A stretch of 64,000 nt of DNA, from positions 13,264 through 77,263 of the forward strand of contig DAOTTL010000166.1 in the NCBI GenBank assembly GCA_034438135.1, in the 5' to 3' direction. This DNA comes from Ktedonobacteraceae bacterium. GTDB taxonomy: Bacteria > Chloroflexota > Ktedonobacteria > Ktedonobacterales > Ktedonobacteraceae. A model generated the notes under the pieces. The model was not told the origin of the DNA. It made no database searches and worked only from the letters and a program-made list of their open reading frames with translations. A program made the position numbers and the translations under genes. Shown piece after piece: positions 39,791 through 42,700 of the stretch. The number at the start of each line of letters is the position of its first letter. The stretch's first letter is position 1.

Positions 39791-42700
39791 ACCTGCCTGC
39801 TCCTTTGTTCTCTGCTTGCCTGTTGTCTTTGATTGAACCGTTGTTTAACGCGACTTTTTCCTGCCTGTAACTTCTCTCCCAGGCTGTCGTTTTGTCTGCC
39901 TGTGGCGCTGGTATCTTCTCCCTGGCTGATATAGGTTGTCAGCGCATCGATGCTTGGGTATTTAAACAGATCGAGCAAGGCGATAGTGGTGCCGAAGGCC
40001 TCTTTGAGCTTCTGATGAATGGGGACCATGAGTAACGAGTGGCCACCCAGGTCAAAGAAGTTATCGTGTGTCCCTACTTTCTCCAGTTGCAGTACCTCTT
40101 GCCAGATGTGCGCAATTGTTCGTTCCGTTTTCGTGCGAGGTGCGATATATTTCGCGATCTCTTCGGGTCGTATGCGCTCTGGGGCGGGCAAGGCCTGGCG
40201 GTCGAGCTTGCCATTGGCATTGAGTGGCAGTTTCGGCAGGGTGAGGAAAAGCTCAGGTAGCATGGACTCAGGCAGGCGCTCTTGCAGGAAGAGACGGATC
40301 TCTGAGAGCGAAGCTGTGGCGGGCTGTTGACGCCAGACCAGGTAGGCCAGTAGCCGGGGAGCAGCGTCAGGGGGTTCCCACAGGCGTGCTGCGGCATTCA
40401 GAATGGCGGGATGCTGACGCAGGAGTGACTCGATTTCCCCCAGTTCGAGCCGCACTCCACGCACTTTGACCTGCTGATCCACTCGTCCCAGGTACTCTAA
40501 CTGACCATCGGGACGCCAGCGAGCGAGGTCACCGGTGCGATAGAGACGAGTCCCAGGCAGAGAGCTGAAGGGATCGGGCAGGAAGACCTCGGCGGTCTGT
40601 GCCGGATCAGCGAGATAGCCACGACTGAGGCCCAGACCAGCGATGTGCAGGGAGCCAGGAACGCCAGGAGGTGCAAGCTGACCGAAGCGATCCAGGATGA
40701 GTAGCCGTATGTTAGCTATGGGCCGACCAATGGGTGTGGAGCGTCCTGTGGCCTCGTCGGAGGCTGAGAGCAGGGCGTGAGCGACATCATCGGAGGCCTC
40801 GGTGGGTCCATAGGCATTGAGCAGATGCAGTGAGGGGGCGCGTTGACGCAGCCGTTGGACGAGTTCGGGAGGCAGAGCCTCACCGGTCAGGATCAGCCAG
40901 CGCAGGTCAGGCAGAGGAAGACCCTGGTGCATGGTCGGCAGATCGAGCAGGACGCGCAGGAGCGAGGGCACGAGTTCGAGGACAGAGACGCGAGCGAGTG
41001 CGAGTGAGGCGAGCAGCAGCGAGGGGTCCTGAACCGTTGGCGTGGGCAGGATGAGCAAACGAGCGCCTGAGAGCAGAGGAGCCAGAAATTGCCAGAGCGA
41101 GATGACAAAGCTTTGAGAGGCCGTCTGAGCGAGCGTGTCGGCGGGAGAAAGATGGAGGGCCTCGATTTTGGCGGAGAGATGGTTGAGGACGCCAGCGTGA
41201 GAGAGCATGACGCCTTTGGGCTGACCGGTCGAGCCAGAGGTGAAGAGGACGCAGAAGAGATTCTGAGGGAGGAGTTGAGGCAGTAGCGCGGGAGCAGGAA
41301 GAGGCTGTTGAAGCAGCGCAGGTAGCCAGAGCAGCGAGAGATCAGGCAGAGCAGCCGAGAGCGAGGCGCACAGGGGCGCGAGCGTCGGGGTGGAGAGCAG
41401 AAAGTGCGTGTCGCTCTGTTGCAGGATTTGCTGGAGACGAGCGGGAGGAGCTGAGGGATCAAGAGGCACAAACGCGCCGCCAGCTTTGAGGATGGCGAGC
41501 AGTCCAATAAGCAGGAGAGGCGAACGCTCAAGGCAGAGGCCGACGAGTACCTCGGGGCCGACGCCCTGGGTTCGCAAGAGATACGCAAGATGGGTAGACC
41601 TCTGGTCTAGTTCGTGATAGGTGAGCTGTTCGTCCTCGCAGACAACTGCAATGGCATCGGGACGACTATGGGTCATCTCTTCAATGCGTTCCGAGATGGA
41701 GCGCATGTCGGCAGGCTTAGCAGGAGTGGGAGTGATCGCCAGTTGCAGAAGGTGCAGGCGTTCCTGTGAGGAGAGCATGGGAAGCTCGGAAATGGGCAGG
41801 TGAGGAGTGCTGACCATAGCTGTGAGCAGGGTTTGCAATTGAGAGGCCATGGCTGCGATAGTGGACGGGTCGAAGAGGTCACGGTTATATTCCAGCACAC
41901 CTAGCAGGCCGTTTGGCGAGGGTTGCATGCTCAGACTGATCTCGAAACTGGCCGTAGTGCGGGCGATAGGCAGCGGTGTCAGATGCAGATCAGGCAGGGT
42001 CAGAGCCTCGACGGGAGCATTTTGCAGGATGAAGAAGGCCTGGAAGAGTGGTGAATGGCTCAGATCGCGCCGAGGATGCAGGGCCTCGACCAGTCGTTCA
42101 AAGGGAAAATCCTGATGGGCATAGGCATCCAGACAGCGCTGACGGATGCGAGCGAGTAGTTCCTGTAGCTGCGGGTTGCCAGTCAGGTCGGCTCGCAGGA
42201 CGAGCGTATTGACGAAGCAGCCAATAAGAGCTTCAAGGTCCGCATGCGTGCGATTGGCGATAGGAGTGCCGATGAGCAAATCATCCTGACCGCTATAGCG
42301 GGAGAGCAGCAGAGACCAGGCGGTGAGCAGGGTCATGAAAAGGGTCACGCCCTGTTGCTGACTGAAGGTGGTCAGATGTTGAGAGAGGGAGGCAGGCAGG
42401 GTAAAGCGCAGGCGGCCACCCTGAGAGGTGAGCACAGGAGTACGAGGGAAGTCGGTGGGCAATGAGAGCACCAGGGGAGCGCCCTGCAACTGCTCCAACC
42501 AGAAGGACCGTTGGAGATCAAGGGCAGAACCATGCAGCCACTGGCGCTGCCAGAGGGCATAGTCGGGATACTGAATGGGCAACGGAGAGAGGGGAGATGT
42601 CCCGTGAGAGCAGCAAGAGGGATAGAGGAGTGTGAGTTCACGTTGGAAGACGCCCAGTGACCAGCCATCAGAGACGATGTGATGCATACTCAGGAGCAGC

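What the first reader, a model, noticed from the sequence alone, without database searches (positions are those of the whole stretch)
40200..41650. Two near-identical A domains carry Val instead of the alpha-amino-binding Asp235
In module 3 of gene 39787-50979 the A4 core reads SQSFVISLWQF (Val codon 41104-41106). In module 2 of gene 50969-60808 (A domain about 54550-56000) it reads SQSFVVSLWQF (Val codon 55460-55462). Canonical amino-acid-activating A domains have FD here. All other cores (A3, A5, A7, A8 and the A10 Lys) are intact, so the domains look functional.

Loss of Asp235 is the known hallmark of A domains that load substrates without an alpha-amino group, such as alpha-keto, alpha-hydroxy or aryl acids. 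My hand-extracted code is V-(I/V)-W-E?-L-G-A-D-D-K, with two Asp residues at positions 330/331. I cannot match it to a known substrate.

No KR domain is embedded in either module. One of the two modules directly feeds the KS.
Basis: partly seen in the sequence, partly recalled or inferred. Interest (0 to 1): 0.72.

Follow-up and report, generated by a model that had tools for sequence, protein, structure and literature searches.

The report
Diamino-acid-type adenylation domains lacking Asp235
Two substrate-selecting domains of a giant peptide-making enzyme keep the pocket that normally binds the small diamino acids Dab or Dap but have replaced the residue that grips the alpha-amino group, so they probably load an amino acid such as beta-alanine or GABA; it is an uncharacterised variant of a known kind of domain.

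Summary
On the minus strand, the third A domain of gene 39787-50979 and the second of gene 50969-60808 read SQSFV(I/V)SLWQF, with GTC Val codons exactly at 41104-41106 and 55460-55462. Val aligns without gaps to Asp235 of GrsA-PheA (1AMU). The P-loop, A5, A7, A8 and the A10 Lys are intact.

The real code is V(I/V)WEITADDK, and it has a clear match. It is the published Dab/Dap code (Dab DIWELTADDK; Dap or N-Me-Dap DIWEVTADDK, DIWEATMDDK) without Asp235. The domains fall inside that clade (100/100 NJ bootstraps).

The two copies are 86% identical, not near-identical. Their dS is about 0.35-0.7 and dN/dS 0.13-0.2, so both are under purifying selection.

Val235 recurs in this family in at least three further lineages (Alphaproteobacteria and Myxococcaceae MAGs, soil metagenomes). 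No published code matched.

Most likely the domains load a short omega-amino acid without an alpha-ammonium group (beta-Ala or GABA; less likely isoserine-type 2-hydroxy acids), joined through its terminal amine. The substrate is inferred, not shown.

This is a new variant of a known kind and of moderate interest.

The parts
40150..41700 (-). A* domain of g1 module 3 (residues about 3094-3610), code VIWEITADDK
   Evidence: Pfam AMP-binding. Code extraction. AF2 model with pLDDT 93.2 and a canonical A-domain fold.
41104..41106 (-). GTC Val codon at the Asp235-equivalent position of g1 A*
   Evidence: Gap-free alignment to LgrA and GrsA.
40786..40791 (-). Asp330-Asp331 of g1 A*, the presumed binders of the terminal amine. 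Glu278 lies at 40975-40977.
   Evidence: These residues are conserved in all Dab/Dap-type relatives.
40207..40209 (-). A10 catalytic Lys517 of g1 A*
40651..40653 (-). A6 core position of g1 A*: Ser where 61 of 61 relatives have Glu
54500..56050 (-). A* domain of g2 module 2, code VVWEITADDK
55460..55462 (-). GTC Val codon at the Asp235-equivalent position of g2 A*
55136..55141 (-). Asp330-Asp331 of g2 A*. Lys517 lies at 54557-54559, and the A6 Phe at 55001-55003.
39787..50979 (-). NRPS g1: C-A(Ser code)-T-E-C-A(Ala code)-T-C-A*-T
50969..60808 (-). NRPS g2: C-A(DARSLSQMTK)-T-C-A*-T-C-A(Gly code)-T
36713..39790 (-). KS-AT-ACP module with no KR, fed directly by the g1 A*-T. The KS Cys is present and the AT has HAFH (malonyl type).
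30024..30251 (-). MbtH-like protein, a likely A-domain partner
   Evidence: The translation shows the MbtH signature ([10 protein letters not shown]...W...W). No family search was run on it.

Best explanation
Both A* domains are functional adenylation domains of the Dab/Dap-specific clade that have lost only the alpha-amino anchor (Asp235 to Val, a single GAC-to-GTC step).

They keep the acidic floor of the pocket (Glu278, Asp330, Asp331). In characterised relatives this part of the code accompanies Dab or Dap specificity, so it presumably binds the side-chain ammonium. The domains therefore most likely adenylate a short, unbranched carboxylic acid that has a terminal amine but no alpha-ammonium group. 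In practice that means the des-alpha-amino versions of Dap or Dab: beta-alanine or GABA.

Proposed steps:
1. The acid is loaded on the following T domain.
2. The upstream C domain acylates its terminal amine, which puts a beta- or gamma-peptide link in the chain.
3. In g2 the residue is passed on to a Gly module.
4. In g1 it is passed to a KS-AT-ACP module, which adds a malonyl unit and leaves a beta-keto group.

Shown: the Val at position 235, the pocket identity, clade membership, intact catalytic cores, purifying selection, recurrence of Val235 in the family, and the module order. Inferred: the substrate, the amine used for bond formation, and activity itself.
For: Pocket and clade:
- The code is V(I/V)WEITADDK.
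- Published codes are Dab DIWELTADDK (20 domains, including PvdL) and DIWELTVDDK, and Dap or N-Me-Dap DIWEATMDDK, DIWEVTADDK and DVWEMNADDK (PMC12283262 Table S21).
- The nearest homologues (45-51% identity) carry DIWE[ILV]TADDK.
- The family including A* is monophyletic in 100 of 100 NJ bootstraps.

Absence of an alpha-amino anchor:
- Asp235 is invariant in 61 Asp-type relatives.
- No residue that distinguishes the Val-type domains turns acidic.
- No acidic residue lies within 10 positions of Val.

Signs of function:
- dN/dS between the two copies is 0.13-0.2 at dS 0.35-0.7, and the pocket is identical except for Ile versus Val at 236.
- The catalytic cores are intact.
- The AF2 model is confident, with pLDDT 93.2 and TMq 0.90 to EntF.

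Recurrence:
- Val235 together with Asp330/Asp331 recurs in other lineages: L002, L006, L016, L081-L087, P0028, P0294 and others.
- These never group with the window pair in bootstraps (0 of 100).

Context:
- The C domains in front of A* are 81-87% identical to those in front of the Gly and Ser modules. This fits an acceptor whose amine sits on an unsubstituted CH2.
- No KR is present.
- The 64-kb window encodes no dedicated precursor-synthesis gene, which fits a primary-metabolite substrate.

Literature: a hydrophobic residue at position 235 marks A domains whose substrates lack an alpha-amino group (PMC11253843; PMC13643306).
Against: - There are no biochemical data, and no characterised member of the Val-type group was found.
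- Position 299 (Ile) does not say whether the pocket is Dab-length or Dap-length.
- McyG carries Val at this position and can still bind L-Phe (review), so loss of Asp does not strictly exclude an alpha-amino acid.
- Beta-Ala domains, as I recall them, use a different code (V-D-x-x-x-S-L-A-D-K). This is from memory and was not verified here.
- The otherwise invariant A6 Glu is lost and differs between the two copies (Ser and Phe), which hints at some relaxation.
- Assigning Asp-Asp to positions 330/331 follows the convention of the published codes. A plain pairwise alignment to GrsA puts a 2-residue gap there.
- Other Val-type members also lack the A5 proline, a keto-acid hallmark. The window pair does not, so the Val-type domains may not all share one substrate.
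Confidence: 0.5

Rival explanations
1. The domains still activate L-Dab or L-Dap. The terminal amine held by Asp330, Asp331 and Glu278, together with backbone carbonyls, would give enough binding without Asp235. Val235 would only tune affinity or exclude competitors.
For: The rest of the pocket is that of Dab/Dap domains. McyG with Val at this position binds L-Phe, and the review concludes that the Asp is not strictly required. The A5 proline typical of alpha-amino-acid domains is kept.
Against: Asp235 is invariant in 61 of 61 close relatives and in all published Dab/Dap codes. Val235 has been fixed repeatedly and kept under purifying selection, which suggests a change of function. The window holds no Dab or Dap biosynthesis gene.
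Confidence: 0.2
2. The substrate is a 2-hydroxy or 2-oxo acid that keeps the terminal amine, such as isoserine or 4-amino-2-hydroxybutyrate. This is the amine-bearing version of the reader's alpha-hydroxy/alpha-keto idea.
For: A hydrophobic residue at 235 is the hallmark of alpha-keto and alpha-hydroxy acid A domains. Val-type relatives outside the window also replace the A5 proline (8 of 8 proteins and 10 of 10 loci). The keto-acid domain StsA does the same, and there the reverse change abolishes activity. Isoserine occurs next to Dap in edeine.
Against: The window domains keep the A5 proline. No KR is present. The window encodes no aminomutase, transaminase or dehydrogenase that could make such an acid. 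The domains are not related to the separate keto-acid ligase clade. Free 4-amino-2-oxobutyrate would be expected to cyclise (my own chemical reasoning).
Confidence: 0.15
3. The substrate is an ordinary aliphatic alpha-keto or alpha-hydroxy acid, or an aryl acid without any amine, as the reader first proposed.
For: Val at position 235.
Against: The pocket floor has three acidic residues conserved from the diamino-acid clade. Both domains sit in elongation modules whose C domain needs a nucleophile on the acceptor. A keto acid has none unless a KR reduces it, and no KR is present. The aryl-acid A5 motif is absent.
Confidence: 0.05
4. The domains are catalytically dead scaffolds, and their T domains are loaded in trans or skipped.
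For: The alpha-amino anchor and the invariant A6 Glu are both lost, and the A6 residue differs between the copies. Inactive A domains retained for structural reasons have been described (Ax domains).
Against: dN/dS is 0.13-0.2 across the whole domain. The A3, A5, A7, A8 and A10 cores are all intact, unlike the degraded A3 of Ax. The charged pocket residues are conserved at only 45-50% overall identity to relatives. The window contains no stand-alone A domain.
Confidence: 0.05

Closest known systems
Dab- and Dap-activating NRPS A domains: PvdL module 4 and OcfE (Dab, DIWELTADDK); PamC/PamH (N-Me-Dap, DIWEVTADDK); EdeK (Dap, DIWEATMDDK)
   Same: They belong to the same phylogenetic family. They share 8 of 10 code positions, the Glu278/Asp330/Asp331 acidic pocket and the signature SQxF-x-ISxWQ ... 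NAYGPTExSDDV.
   Different: Asp235 is replaced by Val, with Val238 to Leu and a Tyr-to-Cys change just before the P-loop. The substrate is therefore unlikely to be recognised through an alpha-amino group.
Alpha-keto-acid-activating A domains (CesA/StsA, CrpD-M2, KAL domains)
   Same: They have a hydrophobic residue in place of Asp235, and in KAL restoring Asp abolishes activity.
   Different: Those domains form a separate clade. They have hydrophobic pockets, replace the A5 proline (Met in StsA) and are followed by a KR. None of this applies to the window domains.
Beta-alanine-type A domains with V-D at positions 235/236 (exochelin FxbB, bleomycin and Ebony type; the code is from my memory)
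   Same: They have Val at 235 and act in elongation modules that incorporate an amino acid without an alpha-amino group.
   Different: Those have Asp at 236 and a different pocket (x-x-x-S-L-A-D-K), and they lie outside the Dab/Dap family. VD-type hits P0031 and P0070 fall elsewhere in the tree.
McyG A domain (Val227 at the Asp235 position)
   Same: It has Val at the alpha-amino position of an otherwise normal A domain.
   Different: It is a loading domain with an aromatic, hydrophobic pocket and is unrelated in sequence context.
Fungal GABA-loading NRPS modules (fusaoctaxin NRPS9, unguisin UngA)
   Same: They are precedents for direct NRPS incorporation of GABA.
   Different: They are fungal. 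In fusaoctaxin GABA is proposed as the starter unit.

Membership tests
Catalytically competent NRPS adenylation domain (ANL superfamily, PF00501/PF13193) | A3 P-loop, A5 (N-x-Y-G-P-T-E), A7 Asp, A8 hinge and A10 Lys are present, with the canonical two-subdomain fold | tested here: met
   Motifs. Pfam. AF2 pLDDT 93.2 and Foldseek TMq 0.90 to EntF. Exception: the A6 Glu is replaced.
Dab/Dap-specific A-domain family | Phylogenetic placement within the DIWE-x-T-A-DD-K clade | tested here: met
   The family including both A* is monophyletic in 100 of 100 NJ bootstraps, and in 83 of 100 with the A4/A5 columns masked.
Dab/Dap-specific A-domain family | Pocket residues 236-331 (I/V, W, E, L/V/I, T, A, D, D) and Lys517 | tested here: met
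   (I/V)-W-E-I-T-A-D-D-K against the published codes.
Dab/Dap-specific A-domain family | Asp235 binding the alpha-amino group | tested here: not met
   Val in both copies. All 61 Asp-type relatives have Asp.
Dab/Dap-specific A-domain family | Activates L-Dab or L-Dap | not testable with these tools
   This needs adenylation assays.
Alpha-keto-acid-activating A (Ak/KAL) domains | Hydrophobic residue at position 235 | tested here: met
   Val. Criterion taken.
Alpha-keto-acid-activating A (Ak/KAL) domains | A5 proline replaced (Met in StsA) | tested here: not met
   NAYGPTE is kept in both copies. The proline is replaced in the other Val-type lineages.
Alpha-keto-acid-activating A (Ak/KAL) domains | KR domain in the same module | tested here: not met
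   Pfam finds no KR, and the A10-to-T spacing is normal.
Beta-Ala (V-D type) A domains | Asp at position 236 following Val235 | tested here: not met
   Position 236 is Ile or Val. The criterion is from memory.
Aryl-acid A domains (DhbE/EntE) | Asn235 and the aryl-type A5 motif | tested here: not met
   Val235 and a standard A5. Criterion taken.

The most novel reading that the evidence does not exclude
Val235 domains of the Dab/Dap family form an undescribed specificity class that loads GABA or beta-alanine directly into bacterial assembly lines. The class would arise repeatedly from diamino-acid domains by a one-nucleotide Asp-to-Val switch. The switch would then be a natural and portable way to convert a diamino-acid module into a backbone-extending omega-amino-acid module.
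Probability: 0.4. Interest if true: 0.6.

Novelty: new variant of a known kind. Interest (0 to 1): 0.5.

Why it matters
A-domain codes are the main basis for predicting nonribosomal peptide structures, and domains without Asp235 are usually left as 'unknown'. Here the unknown reduces to one clear, testable change: the Dab/Dap pocket minus the alpha-amino anchor.

If the domains load beta-Ala or GABA, this would add a new entry to specificity predictors. It would explain a recurrent group of soil-bacterial domains, including a conserved acyl-ligase-T-C-A*-T-C synthetase. It would also suggest a single-residue engineering route between diamino-acid and omega-amino-acid incorporation.

It would also predict two backbone-extended residues, one of them further extended by a PKS module, in the product of this cluster.

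Tried and rejected
- Full-text searches for the codes (DIWELTADDK, VIWEITAD, VIWQITAD and similar) found nothing. The Dab/Dap codes were found only as spaced table cells in a supplement. The PARAS supplement held as text has no matching code.
- A homologue search with only the A4-A5 segment returned short Asp-type fragments and no Val-type members.
- The exhaustive representative search ranked giant multi-A-domain proteins by summed score. It mainly showed that the window proteins themselves are in the collection.
- The organism could not be identified. The protein is on an 83-kb NCBI contig without a name, and the contig look-up failed. The genome collection holds no relative above 46% identity.
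- The genomic context of the other Val-type loci gave no precursor-pathway clue. L082 is flanked by shikimate, acetyl-CoA-carboxylase and biotin genes. L006 and L016 have only a PPTase and a class-B-like flavin monooxygenase.
- I first took loss of the A5 proline as a marker strictly tied to Val235. It is also absent in 11 of 127 Asp-type family members, so I treat it as an association only.
- A single origin of all Val-type domains was rejected (0 of 100 bootstraps). NJ on a star-like tree with a long window branch cannot, however, prove independent origins.
- The pocket could not be modelled at residue level, because the tools give no access to coordinates and offer no docking.
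Full report
**Observation.** All large ORFs of the window lie on the minus strand.
- Gene g1 (39787-50979, 3730 aa) reads C-A-T-E-C-A-T-C-A*-T.
- Gene g2 (50969-60808, 3279 aa) reads C-A-T-C-A*-T-C-A-T (Pfam; core motifs).
- The A4 core of the third A domain of g1 is SQSFVISLWQF. 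That of the second A domain of g2 is SQSFVVSLWQF.

**Alignment of Val to Asp235.**
- phmmer aligns FVISLWQ to FDISVAE of LgrA module 2, with no gap between the P-loop and A4.
- I checked my recalled GrsA sequence against 1AMU: it matches chain residues 184-452 with one mismatch. Aligning both domains to it puts Val opposite Asp235, again without gaps.
- The nearest acidic residue is 11 positions upstream.
- A3, A5, A7, A8 and the A10 Lys are intact.
- An AlphaFold2 model of the g1 domain has mean pLDDT 93.2 and pTM 0.92. It superposes on EntF with TMq 0.90.

**Corrections to the observation.**
- Automatic extraction gives VIWEITADDK (g1) and VVWEITADDK (g2). Positions 299 and 301 are Ile and Thr, not Leu and Gly.
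- Placing Asp-Asp at 330/331 follows the convention of the published codes. A plain pairwise alignment to GrsA inserts two residues there.
- The two domains are 86% identical in protein. dS is 0.35-0.68 and dN/dS 0.13-0.20 along the A domain. They are old, diverged copies under purifying selection, not near-identical ones.
- One core is not intact. The A6 Glu is invariant in 61 relatives but is Ser in g1 and Phe in g2.

**What the pocket is.**
- The best homologues in the protein collection are only 45-51% identical, and nearly all carry DIWE[I/L/V]TADDK.
- A published compilation lists these codes (PMC12283262, supplementary Table S21):
  - Dab: DIWELTADDK (20 domains, including PvdL of several pseudomonads, the azotobactin synthetase and OcfE) and DIWELTVDDK.
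  - Dap: DIWEATMDDK (EdeK) and DVWEMNADDK (SulI).
  - N-methyl-Dap: DIWEVTADDK (PamC/PamH).
- The A* code is therefore the diamino-acid code with Asp235 changed to Val, and with Ile at 299.
- In NJ trees the DIWE..DDK family including both A* domains is monophyletic in 100 of 100 bootstraps.

**Is Val235 an accident?**
- Asp is invariant at this column in the 61 Asp-type family members aligned.
- Val appears again, always together with Asp330/Asp331:
  - in three genome loci: two Alphaproteobacteria MAGs and one Myxococcaceae MAG;
  - in seven of seven metagenome hits to a degenerate DNA pattern for the motif, with GC contents from 0.39 to 0.71;
  - in about ten further database proteins.
- These sequences form a well-supported core clade (60 of 60 bootstraps), a second pair (P0028 and L087, 60 of 60) and a solitary sequence (L082).
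- They never group with the window pair (0 of 100 bootstraps). The window pair is closer to Asp-type domains from Ktedonobacteraceae and Acidobacteriaceae MAGs (about 50%) than to any other Val-type domain (35-48%).
- Repeated origin is likely but not proven by NJ on a star-like tree.
- Val-type domains share two further changes: Val238 to Leu or Ile, and Tyr to Cys or Phe just before the P-loop. None of the positions that distinguish them becomes acidic, so the alpha-amino anchor is lost rather than moved.
- Asn235 and Gly235 variants also exist in the family.

**Mechanistic reading.**
- Published structures and reviews show a pattern. A domains whose substrates lack an alpha-amino group carry a small or hydrophobic residue at 235:
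  - Ile in the keto-acid domain StsA;
  - Val in KAL domains, where Val-to-Asp abolishes activity;
  - Ala or Gly in hydroxy-acid domains;
  - Val227 in McyG.
- The A* domains keep Glu278, Asp330 and Asp331, which accompany Dab/Dap specificity in their relatives. They sit in ordinary elongation modules, so the loaded unit must offer a nucleophile to the upstream C domain.
- Together this points to a short acid with a terminal amine and no alpha-ammonium group. The simplest candidates are beta-alanine (des-amino Dap) and GABA (des-amino Dab).
- Supporting context:
  - The C domains in front of both A* domains are 81-87% identical to those in front of the Gly and Ser modules. No special acceptor site has evolved, and the acceptor amine is probably sterically Gly-like.
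  - There is no KR.
  - The window encodes no precursor-synthesis enzyme. Apart from the synthetases it holds a flavin monooxygenase, an MFS transporter, an MbtH-like protein and a 111-aa ORF that was not searched against any family library.
- In g1 the unit is handed to a KS-AT-ACP module with an active-site Cys and a malonyl-type AT and no reductive domains. A C-A(Ser code)-MT-T-C protein follows.

**Rivals.**
- *Dab or Dap is still the substrate.* McyG shows that the Asp is not absolutely required, and the window domains keep the A5 proline typical of amino-acid domains.
- *A 2-hydroxy or 2-oxo omega-amino acid, such as isoserine.*
  - For: Val-type relatives outside the window all lack the A5 proline (8 of 8 proteins, 10 of 10 loci), compared with 11 of 127 Asp-type members. 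This echoes the essential Pro-to-Met change of StsA.
  - Against: the window domains keep the proline and have no KR.
- *Amine-free keto, hydroxy or aryl acids.* These fit neither the acidic pocket nor the need for a nucleophile.
- *A dead domain.* This is contradicted by the low dN/dS, the intact cores and the conserved charged pocket. The lost A6 Glu remains unexplained.

**Comparison with what is known, and novelty.**
- By descent the domains belong to the Dab/Dap family but fail its defining Asp235 feature.
- They resemble keto-acid domains only at position 235.
- They differ from the V-D type beta-Ala domains (a code recalled from memory) in pocket and in phylogeny.
- GABA loading is documented for fungal NRPSs such as fusaoctaxin. 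I found no described bacterial A domain with this code.
- This is a new variant of a known kind: a real, recurrent, uncharacterised specificity type whose substrate is predicted but not shown.
- Interest is moderate. Non-Asp235 domains are familiar to specialists. The clean reduction to 'diamino-acid pocket minus the alpha-amino anchor', its recurrence, and the one-nucleotide switch make a sharp and easily tested hypothesis.

Noticed in passing
window 57000-58400, 53800-55100, 49500-50850 and 41750-43100 (minus strand; C domains of g2 modules 2 and 3 and g1 modules 1 and 3; approximate): Four C domains are 81-87% identical to one another whatever A domain follows (A*, Gly, Ser, A*). They are only about 50% identical to the other C domains of the window. 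This suggests module duplication or homogenisation in which A domains were exchanged independently of C domains.
   Followed up: partly
window 40651-40653 and 55001-55003 (minus strand): The A6 core Glu, invariant in 61 relatives, is Ser in one A* copy and Phe in the other. The neighbouring Gly-x-Gly-Val-Gly of A6 is also altered, to GLGLS. The functional meaning is unknown.
   Followed up: partly
window 30024-30251 (minus strand): A 75-aa MbtH-like ORF lies between the C-A-MT-T-C gene and the flavin monooxygenase gene. An unannotated 111-aa ORF sits at 30253-30588.
   Followed up: no
window about 57700-59300 (minus strand, first A domain of g2): The code DARSLSQMTK matches no substrate I know. 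The same first seven residues occur in two other fetched loci, and DPRSLCQ in two more.
   Followed up: no
window 748-25777 (minus strand): A second NRPS/PKS series is present: A-T-C-A-T, then three C-A-T modules, then a second KS-AT-ACP without KR (7531-10710), then a gene with two further C-A-T-type modules. The codes read Ala-Leu-Ala-Leu-(DIWHLGFINK)-malonyl-Asn-Cys. It may continue the same assembly line through the terminal C domain of gene 30585-36608.
   Followed up: no
window 30585-36608 (minus strand): The Ser-code A domain is interrupted by a methyltransferase domain. The gene has an extra C-terminal C domain and no TE, and its first C domain has HHIVSDS instead of HHxxxDG.
   Followed up: no
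window 61733-64000 (minus strand): The upstream gene ends in A-T-TE, so a different assembly line, or the terminal module, is encoded directly upstream of g2. g2 itself starts with a C domain.
   Followed up: no
L006 4275-13099, L016 4312-13234, L086 1726-8262, L085 1071-6116: The main Val-type clade sits in a conserved small synthetase: acyl-AMP ligase-T-C-A*-T-C. In the two Alphaproteobacteria MAGs a PPTase and a 546-aa class-B-like flavin monooxygenase precede it. The product is unknown.
   Followed up: partly
P0356 and P0366 (database proteins): The Dab/Dap family also contains Asn235 (FNISVWQ, A5 proline kept) and Gly235 (FGISLWQ, A5 Leu) variants.
   Followed up: no
window 27009-28338: A 1.3-kb stretch between the MFS transporter and the flavin monooxygenase genes has no convincing ORF; only short overlapping ORFs are listed.
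   Followed up: no
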